Source: Podarcis vaucheri
Lineage: Eukaryota
Assembly: GCA_965113315.1 (NCBI GenBank)
Contig: OZ220370.1
Length of the DNA stretch: 64,000 nucleotides
Reading direction: 5' to 3' (one strand)
Shown piece by piece: positions 18,801 through 33,800 of the stretch. Position numbers: made by a program. Position 1 is the first letter of the stretch. Each line of letters starts with the position of its first letter.

Positions 18801-21800
18801 CTGGAGAAGAACCATCACCGTAAATACATTCTGTCTGTTTCATTTCTACTGTGAAATCTCACACACGGGAGGTGCCCAGCTTCTCATCCACACATGATGC
18901 CACTAGGAGCAAATCCAGGTGCTTCCAGTGCAAGCACATAAGACAGAGGACACCACTTTTTCAACAGCAGTGTACCTCATCTACCTCTTCACTGAAGTCT
19001 ACCATGACAACATTCAGAAGGCATTGTCTACCTTTAGGGGAGAGAAAATACTTCTATTCATAGATTTCTTTCATCTTTTCCAGGAAGTCCATGAATCTCC
19101 TTGACCTGACCCCTTCCCTAACTATTATCTTAGTTGTCTCCACTATGGAAGCTGTTTGTTGGGAACATCAGGGACCAGGTTCTTGCTCATAAAACTCTTT
19201 TTAACCTTGCTCCTCCTAACCTTTGACTCCAGAGGCTTAAAAATTTCCTTTGTGATGTCATGGTTTATTCTGTTTTGTGCACTGGCTGCAAAACTCCTGA
19301 AATTTAGGAAAGGGTATATGGAGAGACTCTTAGTATACTCCATTTGGAGAACAAAGGCCATAGTGGGAATGAGTTTTGAAGAGCTCTCCTGCATCGGTTA
19401 TTGAATGCCATTCATTTAAAGGAAATTCAGGCAGACAATCAATGGGTCTTTTAACGTGATCTTATATCCAGCAAATGGCAGTATATCACTTAATTGTGCA
19501 GCCACTGGTGTTTGTTGCATTCTGTTTTTTAAAAAATCTGCAAAATATGCAGTTTGCTGGTTTAGCTTATAACCCCAACCATTCCAAACAAAGAGTGTTC
19601 ATTATTGAATTTAAATGCTTGTGACATTCATTAATGAATTCAAAAGCTTGTAATGACATAGGATTTATTGTTCATATAATTATCTTGGGAAATCCAGTAA
19701 CTGACAGCTGGCGAATGGGCTCCCAGCTCTTCTTCAACATTTGCACTGGCGCTTTAAGACCTCCCCCACCCCATTGCTGGAGCTGGGGAGGGGGAGAATG
19801 GGTGGTCCATTGCAAACAGCCAGGCGCTTCCTTGATTCCAGGAGCCCTGTATCTGCTTTGATGGACAACAAAGCTCCTCCCCTCTTGATTCCGATACGGA
19901 CTAGGCACCGCCGCTGTTTTCTGTGGAAGAAAAACAGAGAAAAGATGCAGATGGTGCGCCGCTTTCTCATCCCTTGCGCGATCTAACCCGGGATTCTGTG
20001 TTGTTTCCTTGGCTGTGCTGGAATCAGAGAGGACAGAGGTCCAGCAAAGGAAGAGGAAATTTTGGCGACATTATGCTGTCTCTGGAAGAAAGACTACTCC
20101 TGCCATGGCAAGTAAGAGCTTTGCTTTTGGTTTCTGTCTCTCTCCAGAGTGCTGGAGAGATGACCCAGCTCCGTTATTCGATTCCTGAGGAGTTAGCTCC
20201 TGGGGCCTTTGTTGGGGATGTGGCTAAAGACTTGGGTCTAGATGCTGCCCGGGTGGTCTCCCGACAGCTGCAGATCATGGCTGGCTCTGCTGAAAAGTAC
20301 TTCGAAGCCAAGGTGCCAAATGGTGTCTTGGTCGTGAAAGAACGGCTTGACCGAGAGCAGCTTTGTGGGCCCAGCTTACACTGCCTGCTCTATCTGGAGC
20401 TCCTACTTGCAAACCCAACAGCCTCCCATCGTGTGGAAGTTGAGCTCTTGGATGTGAATGACAACGACCCAGTTTTTCTTACCAGTCTCACCCATTTGGA
20501 GATAGCAGAGTCTGCAATGCCAGGGGCCCGCTTCCCCCTGGAAAGTGCTGAAGATTTGGACGTTGGCATGAATTCAGTCAGCACCTACCAGCTGAGTCCA
20601 CGTGGACAATTCAGCCTCAGTGTTAAGTCACATAAAGGCGGCAGCAAACCTGAGCTGGTGTTAGAGAAGGCGCTGGATAGAGAACAGCAGCAGCGCTACC
20701 CCCTGGTGCTTACAGCCCTGGATGGAGGAGTTCCTGCTAAATCCGGGACAGCAAAGATTCTCGTGTCAGTCATAGACGCCAATGACAATCCACCTGTCTT
20801 TAACCAGTCGGTGTACAAAGTTAGCCTACTAGAAAATGCCCCAGTGGGGGCCCTTGTGATACATTTACAAGCTACAGACAGTGATGAGGGGGCAAATGGG
20901 AAAGTTTCCTACTCCTTCAGCAGCCACACTCCACAGAAAATCCGGAAAATGTTCAGCCTTAATGAGGAGACTGGGGAGATAAGAGTCCTGGGAAGTGTGG
21001 ATTACGAAGATGACACATTGTATGAAATTGATGTGAGGGCCAAAGACCAAGGGTCACCTTCCATGGATGCACACTGCAACATCTTAATGGAGGTAGTGGA
21101 TCTGAATGACAATGAGCCTATCATTAGGTTCACTTCCCTCACCACCACCATACCAGAAGATGCTCCCCCAGGTACCACAGCAGGGCTCCTCAGAGTCAGT
21201 GATGCAGATTCTGGGGAAAATGGAGAAGTACAGCTTCATCTCCCTGCAGATGTCCCCTTCCAGCTTGTACCTTCCTTTAAGAACCACTACTCTTTGATCA
21301 CCAGTGGCCCCCTAGATCGGGAGGAAATCTCACAGTACAAAGTTATGATCACAGCTACGGATTCTGGTTCTCCGCCTCTCTCCAGTCAAAGAAACTTCCT
21401 TGTAAATATATCTGACCTGAACGATAACCCACCCCACTTCTCACAGCCTGCATATGAGACCCTCGTAACTGAGAACAATGCTCTGGGGCTGCCAATCATT
21501 TCTATATCTGCCTTTGACCCTGATCTGGGGCAGAACTCACACCTGTCTTATTCGTTAGTGGAGCATATCATAAATGGAATGCCCATTTCCTCCTATGTCT
21601 ATGTTATGGAGAACGGTACTATCTACAGTGGCTGCTCATTTGACTATGAGCAAACCCAGCAACTGGTCTTCCAGATTCAAGCTAAGGATAATGGTTCTCC
21701 TCCACTCTGTGCCAATGTGACTGTCTCCATCTTCATCATAGACCAGAATGATAATGCTCCTCTCGTTGTATACCCTGTAACCAAGAAGGGGGTCCTAGCC

Positions 21801-30800: not shown

Positions 30801-33800
30801 CTGGGGGGCGGGGCGGGGGGCACCGGACTGCGGCGGGGTCCGGAGGCAGCAGCGGCCACCCCCGGGCTGGATACCTGGAGCAGAGGCAGCCGCTGGAGAC
30901 GGCCATCCTTGCGCGCAAAGGAGCCAGGCATGGGCGGCGGGCAGAGCTGGTCGTGGCAGCTGCTGGCGCTGGTGGCTGCCGTCTTGTCCCTGCCAGGGCT
31001 CATCCCCGCGCAGATTCGCTACTCCATCCCAGAGGACCGGGACCCAGGCTCTTCCGTGGGGAACGTGGCGAAGGACCTAGGCGTGGACGTGCGGAGCTTG
31101 TCCGCTCGCCGCCTGCAGCTGGTCAGCGACGGGATGCGCCACTACTTCCATGTCAACCTCGCCGACGGCATGTTGCTGGTCCACGAGAGGCTGGACCGCG
31201 AAGCTCTGTGCAGCTCCAGCCCCACGTGCTCCTTCCCTCTCCAGCTGGTGTTGGAGAACCCCCTGCAGCTACACCGGGTGGAGGTGGAGATCCTGGACGT
31301 GAACGACAACGCCCCCAAGTTCCCGAAAGACAGGGTTTCCTTGGAAATCACCGAAGTGGCCAACCCGGGCACCCGCTTGCGCCTGGAAGCCGCCGAAGAC
31401 CCGGACACGGGCTCCAACTCCATTGCCACCTATGAGCTTAGCCCAAGCGAACATTTTGCCTTGAGCATTAACGTCAGGGGGGACGGGGTCAAAATGCCCG
31501 AAATTGTGCTGGAGAAGCTTCTAGACAGGGAAAAAGCCGCTGTCCATCACTTAGTCCTGACAGCTCTGGATAGTGGGAATCCTGTTCAGTCTGGGACTGC
31601 CCAGGTGACAGTCCACGTCCTGGATGCAAATGACAACCCCCCTGTGTGTGACCCGCCAGTGTCCAAAGTTTATTTGGAGGAAAACGTCCAGGTGGGGACT
31701 GTTGTAACGAAGCTCAATGTTACGGACTTAGATGAAGGTCCCAATGGAGAGATGGAGTATTTCCTCAAAGCCAGCAATAGCGCACCTCTCAAGCTCCTTG
31801 ACTTGTTTAGCTTGGATCCCCAGACAGGGGAGATCAGGACCAAAGCTCTGCTGGACTACGAAGAAGCCAATGCTTACGAGATAGCTATCTACATAAAAGA
31901 CAAGGGGTCCCCTGCCATGGAGGGTCACTGCAACATCAGAGTAGAACTTGTTGATGTCAATGACAACCGCCCAGAGATTATGCTGACCTCCCTCTCTAGC
32001 CCAGTGCAAGAAGATGCACCCACGGGAACAGTCATTGCCCTGATCCAAGCAAAGGACAACGACTCTGAGGAAAATGGGCAAGTCCACTTGGAGATTACCA
32101 GGCACATCCCATTCAAACTGGTGTCTTCCTTTAAGGGACATTATTCACTGGTGACCAATGGGCCCCTGGACCGAGAGAAGGCTGCTGGATATAATATCAC
32201 AATTAAAGCAACAGATTCTGGAATGCCTCAAAAATCCACCCACAAAAACATATTTATTCAGGTCTCAGATGTTAATGACAATGCACCCACTTTCTCCATC
32301 CCTTCATACACTGCCCATGTGGAGGAAAATACTTCCCCTGGGACTCTAGTTTTTTCTCTGTCAGCCTCAGATCCGGATGCAGGTGTCAACTCCAAGCTGT
32401 CTTATTCCATTGTGGACAATGGAAATCATGGCTTACCCATTTCGACCTATTTCCACATCAACCAAGAGAATGGCAGCATTTACACATCCAGGATGCTTGA
32501 CTATGAGCAAGAGAAAGTCTTTCAAGTTGCAGTGGAGGTGAAGGATTCGGGTTTCCCACCCCTGAGCAGCACAGCCACTCTTCACTTGTTTGTTGTGGAC
32601 CAGAATGACAACGCCCCGGTGATTGTGCACCCGCAAGTCTCCAAGGGCTCTGCCTTTCACCAGCCAGTTCTGCTCCCGGTGGAACCTGGATTCCTGGTGA
32701 CCAAAGTGGTGGCTGTGGATGCCGACAGTGGCCACAATGCTTGGCTGTCATATAGTTTGCTTCAGGATGCCAATGAAGCCACCCCGTTCAAAGTGGAACG
32801 CCACTCAGGAGAGATCCGGGCTGTTCGGGCATTGAGGGAGCCTGGGGTGTCCCACAGGTTGGTGATAGAAGTAAGAGACAATGGAGTGCCGTCTCTCTCA
32901 GCCTCACTGGTTCTTGTGATTTCCTCAGAGGATAATGCTGTGCAGGACTTTTCCAAGTCCTTGGACCTTCTCCCCAAATCACCTTCCAGAGCCCCCAGCC
33001 TAACTCTCTACCTTATCATCTCTCTTGTGGCCATCTCTCTGGTCTCTTGTGTAATGTTGGTTATTGTGGGGGCCAGGTGCTTCAGATCTGGCCTCTGTGT
33101 CCCCAGCTGGTTCATGTCACACTGCTGTAGTAAGAGGACAGACAGGAAATCCACCATAAATTTCACTGGGCGCCCACATCCCGAAGGCTTTATCAGATAC
33201 CTTGAAGTGGGCGGAGCTGGAGCTCAGCACTACAAGTCTTGTCTCTCTCCAATGTCTGAACAGGGCGAATTCTTTTTTGTTAAACCTTTCAGTCATTCCA
33301 CTACAGCAGAAAGCATGCTTGCCTTTGAGCAGGCAGGCAGTGTTTTGCAGAGTCCCTCTGATGGGGTAAGATACACTAAAGTGATTCTTAAAACATTTCT
33401 GCTTGCAATCCATAAATCCATATTTATCTACCATATTTATCTACCATAGACTTCCATCTGCTAGGTGTAAAGAGGTAAATGAGGTGTGTATGCATGCGTG
33501 TGTATGTTGTGGAGGGTGACATCCCGGGGTTCCTTCATTTTGCAGCTGTTATGCTTTTTACAAGGTGCATGTAGGGCTTTCATTTCTTTCCATGCTACAC
33601 TCTCTCCAGCTGCCTCCCCCCACCCCACGATGTTCTGTGGTAAATTGGGGTGAGAGGAGAATGCATGTGCAGTGGTTGCTCTTGACTGGGATTCCTGGGA
33701 ATATGATTAAAGGGTGGTATAATAAAACAAATATATAGGGTGGTAATCCAACACATGCATCCAATCCGTGCAAGGATTTCTGCTTGTGAAATGGGGTCTG

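What the first reader, a model, noticed from the sequence alone, without database searches (positions are those of the whole stretch)
20073..33365. Five intact C-type gamma exons, three with no mammalian counterpart
Seen: five full variable exons with phase-0 donors precede the constant exons. Established: mammals have only gC3, gC4 and gC5, with gC5 as the last variable exon. Here one extra exon sits before gC5 and two sit after it. All are strongly diverged from one another, so they are not recent duplicates. Inference: the ancestral amniote locus had at least six C-type gamma exons, with reciprocal losses (mammals lost three, this lineage lost gC4). Extra C-type genes may already be described in anole, coelacanth or frog cluster studies, so novelty must be checked.
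Basis: partly seen in the sequence, partly recalled or inferred. Interest (0 to 1): 0.65.

Follow-up and report, generated by a model that had tools for sequence, protein, structure and literature searches.

The report
Lizard protocadherin-gamma C-type exon array
This is the tail end of a lizard's protocadherin-gamma gene cluster, with five intact "C-type" variable exons where mammals have three; the pattern is real and ancient, but it was already described for the green anole in 2009.

Summary
The window is from a lacertid lizard, nearest to Podarcis. It holds five intact plus-strand protocadherin variable exons: E1 9688-12132, E2 20073-22523, E3 24053-26503, E4 27630-30068 and E5 30930-33365. 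Each has a phase-0 GT donor, and the three gamma constant exons follow (first at 36856). The five are 43-46% identical to one another.

E1 matches gamma-C3 and E3 matches gamma-C5 at ortholog level. E2, E4 and E5 reach only paralog-level scores against every solved mammalian C-type structure. No mammalian protein above 47% identity appeared in the three homolog searches.

A tree of EC1-3 places E4 and E5 in fully supported clades with birds, crocodilians, turtles and amphibians. E2 groups with turtles and coelacanth. They are therefore ancient, not recent copies of gamma-C5.

None of this is new. Jiang et al. 2009 (PLoS One, anole) named five gamma-c genes (c3-c7). They reported c4, c6 and c7 without human orthologs and proposed an ancestral surplus with differential loss. 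E4 and E5 fall in the clusters of the anole entries "gamma c6" and "gamma c7", and NCBI already annotates these isoforms in Podarcis and Zootoca.

"At least six ancestral exons" is not shown, because I could not fetch a mammalian gamma-C4 sequence for the tree. Interest is low.

The parts
9688..12132 (+). E1: variable exon, ortholog of gamma-C3 (815 codons)
   Evidence: ORF. Pfam Cadherin_2, 5x Cadherin, Cadherin_C_2. Best PDB match for EC1-3 is Pcdhgc3 4zi8 at 434 bits, against 373 for the next C-type. Clade with bird gamma-C3 at 100/100. Donor GAG|GTAATG in phase 0 is inferred from sequence only.
20073..22523 (+). E2: variable exon, the 'gamma c4' of the anole nomenclature; not shown to be the mammalian gamma-C4 ortholog (817 codons)
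   Evidence: ORF and donor. 98.4% identical to the P. muralis and 97.7% to the P. raffonei 'gamma-C4(-like)' models, which join at this donor to the constant region. Clade with squamates and turtles at 100/99, plus Latimeria at 99/97. PDB gamma-C4 gives 370 bits, no higher than with E1, E3 or E4. No Cadherin_C_2 match.
24053..26503 (+). E3: variable exon, ortholog of gamma-C5 (817 codons)
   Evidence: ORF and donor CAG|GTGAGG. Best PDB match for EC1-3 is 4zpn/4zpo at 460-466 bits, against 392 for the next C-type. That these chains are gamma-C5 is recalled; the PDB name does not say so. Clade with turtles and birds at 97/98.
27630..30068 (+). E4: variable exon, ortholog of anole gamma c6 (813 codons)
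   Evidence: 88.9% identical to DAA06629.1 'TPA_inf: protocadherin gamma c6 isoform [Anolis carolinensis]'. 99.3-99.6% identical to Zootoca and Podarcis models that splice at ...FFGK to the constant region. Clade of 11 rows including Pleurodeles at 100/100.
30930..33365 (+). E5: variable exon, ortholog of anole gamma c7 (812 codons), last before the constant exons
   Evidence: 91.1% identical to DAA06630.1 'TPA_inf: protocadherin gamma c7 isoform [Anolis carolinensis]'. Related models end at ...SPSDG and then continue with the constant region. Clade of 11 rows including Rhinatrema and Ambystoma at 100/100.
32871..32876 (+). Internal phase-0 donor GTAAGA inside E5 (last exon base 32870), upstream of the TM segment
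   Evidence: NCBI models of 6 squamate species (780-781 aa) join ...LVIE/LVVE directly to [10 protein letters not shown] at this point. No read evidence seen.
36856..36914 (+). Gamma constant exon 1 (59 nt)
   Evidence: ttgcag|CAAGCACAACCT...AGTGG|gtgagt, encoding [20 protein letters not shown]. tblastn of P0001 aa 817-837 is 95% identical.
46761..46849 (+). Gamma constant exon 2 (89 nt)
   Evidence: tblastn of P0001 aa 838-866 is 100% identical. Boundaries ccttag|G...AATG|gtcagt.
55756..56012 (+). Gamma constant exon 3, coding part up to the stop (...[10 protein letters not shown])
   Evidence: tblastn of P0001 aa 862-937 is 93% identical. Acceptor gtgtag|AAGCC and the stop codon ends at 56012.

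Best explanation
The window is the 3' end of the protocadherin-gamma cluster of a lacertid lizard. It carries five C-type variable exons in the order gamma-c3, c4, c5, c6, c7 (anole nomenclature), followed by the three shared constant exons. By analogy with the mammalian cluster, each variable exon is a complete first exon: signal peptide, six cadherin repeats, a transmembrane segment and a short cytoplasmic piece. Each would be transcribed from its own promoter, and its phase-0 donor would be cis-spliced to constant exon 1. This would yield five alternative proteins that share a cytoplasmic tail; that part is inferred, not shown here. c3 and c5 are the orthologs of mammalian gamma-C3 and gamma-C5. 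c4, c6 and c7 are old paralogs retained in reptiles (c6 and c7 also in birds and amphibians, c4 also in turtles and coelacanth) and not found in mammals. The arrangement and the differential-loss model were published for the green anole in 2009.
For: Shown here:
- Five intact ORFs with cadherin architecture and phase-0 donors, and the constant exons.
- Annotated isoforms of Podarcis, Zootoca, Pogona, Sceloporus and anole join at the same residues as the E2, E4 and E5 donors.
- E4 and E5 share 90%-identity clusters with the anole TPA entries named gamma c6 and gamma c7, at 88.9% and 91.1% identity.
- PDB matrix for EC1-3, in bits against gC3/gC4/gC5/aC2: E1 434/373/322/346, E2 299/370/343/332, E3 310/392/460/320, E4 311/382/331/342, E5 298/356/317/324. 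Only E1 and E3 have an ortholog-level partner.
- Careful ML tree (57 rows x 316 columns): the E4 clade with Pleurodeles and the E5 clade with Rhinatrema and Ambystoma both have 100/100 support. E2 with turtles has 100/99, and adding Latimeria 99/97. The quick tree of 87 rows agrees.
- Mammalian proteins make up 10, 8 and 1 of the 120 listed hits. All are 38-47% identical, and none is named gamma-C3, C4 or C5. Amphibian and coelacanth orthologs at 54-64% identity are listed.

From print: Jiang et al. 2009 (passages read) report Ac-gamma-c3-7, with c3 and c5 orthologous to human, c4, c6 and c7 without human orthologs, c4 matching Lm-gamma22 and c7 matching Lm-gamma24. They also report splice sites confirmed by RT-PCR for selected exons.
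Against: 'No mammalian counterpart' therefore rests on score comparisons, on absence from capped hit lists (only the 8000 candidates sharing most words were scored and 120 were listed), and on the 2009 paper, whose figures I could not see. Gamma-C4 is the top-scoring solved C-type for E2, for its turtle ortholog (379 against 354 for gC5) and for Latimeria (369 against 340). NCBI names the lacertid E2 models 'gamma-C4'. No transcript reads were available for this species. Promoters were not identified: a shared upstream 12-mer was no better than 2 of 20 shuffles. The E1 and E3 donors have no model support in my data.
Confidence: 0.92

Rival explanations
1. E2 is simply the ortholog of mammalian gamma-C4, as its position between c3 and c5 and its NCBI name suggest. 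In that case only two exons (E4, E5) are extra and gamma-C4 was never lost in lizards.
For: E2 sits where gamma-C4 sits in mammals. The NCBI names for the lacertid models are 'protocadherin gamma-C4'. Gamma-C4 (7jgz) is the best-scoring solved C-type for E2 (370 against 343), for the turtle ortholog (379 against 354) and for Latimeria (369 against 340).
Against: Gamma-C4 scores as high or higher with non-orthologs: E3 392, E4 382, E1 373. Ortholog pairs reach 434-466. 7jgz is an EC1-4 chain, which may raise its baseline. In the full-length E2 search Latimeria (54% identity, 838 bits) made the list of 120, but no mammalian gamma-C4 did. Jiang et al. 2009 found no human ortholog for anole c4.
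Confidence: 0.15
2. E2, E4 and E5 are recent lizard-specific duplicates of gamma-C5.
For: E2-E5 lie together in one clade (38 rows, 96/89) that holds the gamma-C5 orthologs. Automatic names call most of them 'gamma-C5-like'.
Against: They are 43-46% identical to E3 and to each other. Each has its own orthologs in other vertebrate classes with 99-100% support.
Confidence: 0.01
3. One or more of the extra exons is an unexpressed relic that merely keeps an open frame.
For: No expression data for this species were available. E2 lacks the Pfam Cadherin_C_2 match and evolves faster (79-84% identity to other squamate families).
Against: All have frames of 812-817 codons with conserved donors. E4 is 99.3-99.6% identical and E5 99.3-100% identical within lacertids, and 89-91% identical to anole. 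E4 EC1-3 is 75-84% identical to birds and turtles. Spliced isoforms are annotated in several species.
Confidence: 0.03

Closest known systems
Green anole protocadherin gamma c3-c7 (Jiang, Li, Ravi, Venkatesh, Yu 2009, PLoS One 4:e7614; PMC2764143)
   Same: Five C-type variable exons at the 3' end of the gamma subcluster. c3 and c5 are orthologous to human; c4, c6 and c7 have no human ortholog. The same ancestral-surplus and differential-loss model is proposed. E4 and E5 are 88.9% and 91.1% identical to the deposited anole c6 and c7.
   Different: The species is a different squamate family (Lacertidae). With today's genomes c6 does have interspecies orthologs (birds, crocodilians, turtles, a salamander), whereas the paper found none for it.
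Mammalian PCDHGC3, PCDHGC4, PCDHGC5
   Same: Same locus position before the constant exons, same exon architecture and same splicing logic. E1 and E3 are the c3 and c5 orthologs.
   Different: Mammals have three such exons, the lizard five. No lizard exon shows ortholog-level similarity to gamma-C4. Constitutive, biallelic expression is known for the mammalian genes (as stated in PMC4978886) and is untested here.
Coelacanth gamma20-24
   Same: Five gamma-c type genes at the 3' end. The one Latimeria protein I had (P0119) is sister to the E2 clade at 99/97, in line with the published pairing of anole c4 with Lm-gamma22.
   Different: Only one coelacanth sequence was in my data. The coelacanth paper (PMC534663) is not held.
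Xenopus tropicalis pcdh-gamma2 14-36
   Same: Distal gamma exons reported as closer to mouse C-type genes. Exons 15-36 are reported as monophyletic with Pcdhgc4 and Pcdhgc5.
   Different: That is a lineage-specific expansion to about 23 exons in the frog. Here there are single, slowly evolving copies.

Membership tests
Clustered protocadherin, gamma subcluster variable exon | One large exon encoding a signal peptide, six cadherin repeats, a TM segment and a short cytoplasmic piece | tested here: met
   5 of 5 exons have Cadherin_2 plus 5 Cadherin stretches, with hydrophobic segments at the N-terminus and at aa 694-698. All are 812-817 codons long.
Clustered protocadherin, gamma subcluster variable exon | Donor in phase 0 spliced to the shared gamma constant exon 1, with three constant exons downstream | tested here: met
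   Donors. Constant exons at 36856, 46761 and 55756. Junction residues match the annotated isoforms of relatives for E2, E4 and E5. E1 and E3 are inferred from sequence only, and no reads were seen.
C-type (gamma-c) subgroup | Position at the 3' end of the variable array, directly before the constant exons | tested here: met
   The five are the last variable exons. tblastn found no other cadherin-like exon in the window: 0 of 26 HSPs lie outside the five.
C-type (gamma-c) subgroup | Groups in trees with C-type genes rather than with gamma-a, gamma-b or beta genes | tested here: met
   E1-E5 lie in a clade (52 of 57 rows, 95/86) that excludes the gamma-A4, gamma-B1, B2, B7 and beta-17 rows. Caveats: an alpha-type pair also falls inside that clade, and no mammalian gamma-C sequence was in the tree. 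E4 and E5 cluster with the anole entries named gamma c6 and c7.
C-type (gamma-c) subgroup | Constitutive, biallelic expression in most neurons, unlike the stochastic alternate isoforms | not testable with these tools
   No expression data available.
Ortholog of mammalian gamma-C4 (considered for E2) | Closer to gamma-C4 than to other C-type genes, and closer than the other lizard exons are | tested here: not met
   Gamma-C4 7jgz against E1-E5 gives 373, 370, 392, 382 and 356 bits. Ortholog pairs give 434-466. A tree with gamma-C4 itself could not be built.

The most novel reading that the evidence does not exclude
Gamma c6 and c7 (and the reptile c4) are not spare copies. They are constitutive C-type isoforms with non-redundant roles that were present in the tetrapod ancestor and given up only in mammals. 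One of them may carry, in sauropsids and amphibians, the neuron-survival role that in mouse belongs to gamma-C4 alone. The conserved internal donor in c7 would add a TM-less, possibly secreted form. c6 in particular is held more tightly than c3 or c5: EC1-3 is 75-84% identical between lizard and birds or turtles.
Probability: 0.15. Interest if true: 0.5.

Novelty: already known. Interest (0 to 1): 0.15.

Why it matters
C-type protocadherins are the constitutively expressed members of the neuronal self-recognition code, with isoform-specific roles in mouse. It is useful for comparative neurobiology to know that the tetrapod ancestor had more of them and that mammals kept only three. That point has been in print since 2009, and the genes are already annotated in lacertid genomes, though under misleading automatic names ('gamma-C5-like').

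This check adds three small things. Gamma c6 has clear orthologs in birds, crocodilians, turtles and a salamander. Gamma c7 has them in birds, crocodilians, turtles, a caecilian and an axolotl. Many public gene models of these exons look like chimeras of neighbouring exons, so future trees should be built on single exons.

Tried and rejected
- **Representatives search.** Run with the alignment of the five exons. All 150 listed hits were giant or fused cadherins of 1104-7984 aa, of no use for a tree.
- **First homolog search.** The full-length E2 query was flooded by fused models longer than 1000 aa. I shortened the next two queries to 560 aa.
- **Relic exons.** tblastn of E1-E5 against the window at E<=1e-2 gave 0 of 26 HSPs outside the five exons. 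No relic of a sixth exon was detected in the 7.9 kb gap between E1 and E2 or in the E5-to-constant intron.
- **Promoter motif.** A 12-mer like GCTGCTGATCCG lies 248-280 bases upstream of the start codons of E1, E3, E4 and E5, but 2 of 20 shuffles give as much, so I rejected it. The CGCT counts are uninformative. The CSE consensus is only in figures that are not held.
- **Other window features.** Rfam found 0 matches. There is one (TCTT)n repeat. Pfam found 0 families for 10 other ORFs.
- **Bos mutus 'alpha-C1, partial' (P0074).** I meant it as a C-type reference, but its EC1-3 unit paired with an alpha-12 row, so it cannot stand for alpha-C1.
- **Papers.** Searches found no study of gamma c6 or c7 beyond Jiang 2009, the Xenopus paper and one review (passages read). 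PMC534663 (coelacanth) is not held. Figures 1, 3 and S1 of Jiang 2009 and its supplement were not seen.
- **Not possible here.** A search of mammalian gC5-to-constant introns (no vertebrate genome collection on hand; human sequence barred) and RNA-seq junctions.
- **Spliced model.** It was searched exon by exon. The joined variable-plus-constant protein was never built or searched.
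Full report
**What is in the window**

Under the standard code the 64 kb window has exactly five ORFs of at least 300 aa, all on the plus strand: 9688-12201, 20073-22562, 24053-26512, 27630-30134 and 30930-33449. I call them E1 to E5. The window has no N.

All five carry Pfam Cadherin_2 plus five Cadherin stretches, with E-values from 1e-78 to 1e-87. The cytoplasmic Cadherin_C_2 family is above its cut-off in E1, E3 and E4, just below it in E5 (30.4 against 31.5 bits), and absent in E2. 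Each has an N-terminal hydrophobic segment and one strong hydrophobic segment at aa 694-698.

Each frame holds a phase-0 GT near its end:

| Exon | Last exon base | Donor |
|---|---|---|
| E1 | 12132 | GAG\|GTAATG |
| E2 | 22523 | GAG\|GTGAGG |
| E3 | 26503 | CAG\|GTGAGG |
| E4 | 30068 | AAG\|GTGAGA |
| E5 | 33365 | GGG\|GTAAGA |

At 36856-36914 a 59-nt exon (ttgcag|...|gtgagt) encodes [20 protein letters not shown]. Local tblastn with a Podarcis raffonei isoform (P0001) places the other two constant exons, which I bounded at 46761-46849 and 55756-56012.

The finding's span covers E2-E5; E1 lies upstream of it. The ten pairwise identities among E1-E5 are 42.7-46.0%.

**Source and existing annotation**

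The best hits are lacertid lizards:

| Exon | P. muralis | P. raffonei | Zootoca |
|---|---|---|---|
| E2 | 98.4% | 97.7% | 96.9-97.1% |
| E4 | 99.6% | 99.5% | 99.1-99.3% |
| E5 | 100% over 647 aa; 99.9% over 807 aa | 100% over 647 aa | 99.3% over all 812 aa |

The window is therefore a lacertid close to Podarcis, but not identical to any model I saw.

NCBI models in these species, and in Pogona, Sceloporus and anole, end the variable part at exactly the residues encoded at 22523 (...EPNE), 30068 (...FFGK) and 33365 (...SPSDG). They then continue with the constant region. I had no such model for E1 or E3, so those two donors are read from the sequence alone. I saw no transcript reads.

I searched the spliced gene exon by exon. 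The joined variable-plus-constant protein was never built or searched.

**Which exon is which**

I sent the first 350 aa (EC1-3) of each exon to the PDB sequence set. Scores are in bits:

| Query | gamma-C3 (4zi8) | gamma-C4 (7jgz) | gamma-C5 (4zpo) | alpha-C2 (4zpm) |
|---|---|---|---|---|
| E1 | 434 | 373 | 322 | 346 |
| E2 | 299 | 370 | 343 | 332 |
| E3 | 310 | 392 | 460 | 320 |
| E4 | 311 | 382 | 331 | 342 |
| E5 | 298 | 356 | 317 | 324 |

That 4zpn and 4zpo are gamma-C5 is recalled; the PDB name line does not say it.

E1 and E3 each have one partner that stands 60-70 bits above the rest. E2, E4 and E5 do not. Gamma-C4 is their best C-type, but it scores as high or higher with E1 and E3, which are not its orthologs. 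7jgz is also a longer EC1-4 chain, which may raise its baseline.

The turtle ortholog of E2 (P0033) gives 310/379/354/350 in the same column order, and the coelacanth relative (P0119) gives 278/369/340/304. These show the same pattern.

**Homolog searches**

In the three homolog searches, mammalian proteins are 10, 8 and 1 of the 120 listed (counted by source name). All are 38-47% identical and of alpha, beta, gamma-A or gamma-B type, apart from one 'alpha-C1, partial'. Non-mammalian orthologs at 54-77% identity are listed:

- E2: turtles 62-66%, Latimeria 54%.
- E4: crocodilian 73%, birds 73-75%, turtles 64-66%, Pleurodeles 64%.
- E5: turtles 75-77%, crocodile 75%, birds 72-74%, Rhinatrema 64%, Ambystoma 61%.

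These lists are capped: 8000 candidates were scored and 120 shown. Absence from them is good evidence but not proof.

**A trap in the public models**

Domain-by-domain identity to E1-E5 showed that 17 of 31 public models examined switch their best-matching exon between EC domains. Thirteen are single-source and one (Latimeria) is ambiguous. The switchers are B10K 'PCDGM' bird models and Ensembl turtle models that look like chimeras of neighbouring variable exons. I therefore built the trees on EC1-3 only.

**Trees**

From the 307 hits of the three homolog searches I hand-picked 79 proteins. A local HMM cut 82 full EC1-3 units out of 75 of them; 4 had no full unit. With the five window exons this made 87 rows for a quick tree.

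For the careful tree I dropped 30 rows: long branches, second units of fused models and redundant species. That left 57 rows by 316 columns. Support values are ultrafast bootstrap / SH-aLRT:

- E4 clade: 11 rows (squamates, turtles, gharial, birds, Pleurodeles), 100/100.
- E5 clade: 11 rows (squamates, birds, crocodile, turtles, Rhinatrema, Ambystoma), 100/100.
- E2 with squamates and turtles: 100/99; with Latimeria added, 99/97.
- E3 with turtles and birds: 97/98; with a frog added, 99/98.
- E1 with bird gamma-C3: 100/100.
- E2-E5 together form one clade of 38 rows (96/89) apart from E1.

The quick tree agrees. The row meant to stand for alpha-C1 paired with an alpha-12 row and cannot serve as a C-type reference.

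**What is known**

Jiang et al. 2009 (PMC2764143; passages read, figures and supplement not seen) make the following points:

- The anole gamma subcluster has five c-type genes, Ac-gamma-c3 to c7.
- c3 and c5 are orthologous to human c3 and c5 and to coelacanth gamma20 and gamma23.
- c4 and c7 are orthologous to coelacanth gamma22 and gamma24.
- No ortholog was found for c6.

The cluster look-up ties the window directly to that work. The representative of E4's anole cluster is DAA06629.1, 'TPA_inf: protocadherin gamma c6 isoform [Anolis carolinensis]'. E5's cluster holds DAA06630.1, 'gamma c7 isoform'. Identities are 88.9% and 91.1%.

Six paper searches turned up nothing further on c6 or c7 beyond the Xenopus cluster paper (PMC4978886; passages and section 18 read) and a 2020 review (PMC7811963; passages read).

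**How it most likely works**

The architecture and the donor-to-acceptor geometry are shown. The mechanism below is inferred from the mammalian cluster as described in the introductions of those papers.

Each variable exon would be a first exon with its own promoter, and its donor would be spliced in cis to constant exon 1. This would give five proteins with different ectodomains and one shared tail. Whether c4, c6 and c7 are expressed constitutively, as mammalian C-types are, is untested.

Their conservation argues for function. E4 EC1-3 is 75-84% identical to birds and turtles, at least as high as E3 (59-78%).

**What stays open**

'At least six in the ancestral amniote' and 'this lineage lost gC4' both depend on mammalian gamma-C4 being older than the amniote split. 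I could not test that. On PDB scores gamma-C4 is nearest to the lizard gamma-C5 exon (392 bits). The Xenopus paper reports Pcdhgc4 and Pcdhgc5 in one monophyletic group with frog exons. Gamma-C4 could therefore be a later duplicate on the mammalian side, which would make the ancestral count five.

No relic of a sixth exon is detectable in the window (0 of 26 tblastn HSPs outside the five exons). The rival that E2 is gamma-C4 itself keeps about 0.15.

**Verdict**

The finding repeats a 2009 result, and the genes are already annotated in lacertids. Novelty: already known. Interest 0.15.

Noticed in passing
window 32871-32876 (last exon base 32870), inside E5: A phase-0 internal donor GAA|GTAAGA lies after aa 647 (...HRLVIE|VRDNG), upstream of the TM segment at aa ~695-713. 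NCBI models of 6 squamate species (P. muralis, P. raffonei, Pogona, Elgaria, A. carolinensis, A. sagrei; 780-781 aa) join exactly there to the constant region. This predicts a TM-less gamma c7 isoform. A Zootoca model uses another point, after aa 631.
   Followed up: partly
public proteins P0136, P0170, P0033, P0054, P0190, P0408 and others: 17 of 31 database gene models examined change their best-matching window exon between EC domains, for example EC1-3 like E4 and EC4 to the tail like E5. They look like chimeras of adjacent variable exons in homology-based bird and turtle annotations. Trees on full-length models would be misled.
   Followed up: partly
window 22150-22523 (cytoplasmic part of E2): E2 alone has no Pfam Cadherin_C_2 match in its variable cytoplasmic segment, and E5 is just under the cut-off. 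E2 also evolves faster among squamates: 77-84% identity across families, against 83-89% for E4 and 83-93% for E5.
   Followed up: no
hits, classified: No bird or crocodilian protein had E2 as its best window exon, while turtles do. This hints at loss of the reptile c4 in archosaurs.
   Followed up: no
window 62001-64000: A GC-rich stretch (GC 0.60) with overlapping ORFs on both strands that have no Pfam match, about 6 kb past the gamma stop codon. It may be a CpG island of a neighbouring gene; unexplained.
   Followed up: partly
window 9188-9687 and 30430-30929: The 500 bases upstream of E1 are CpG-island-like (GC 0.72, CpG o/e 1.02), and those upstream of E5 are GC-rich (0.67, o/e 0.56). Those upstream of E2, E3 and E4 are not (GC 0.44-0.49, o/e 0.20-0.46). 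CCAATGAG boxes lie next to the shared 12-mer upstream of E4 and E5.
   Followed up: no
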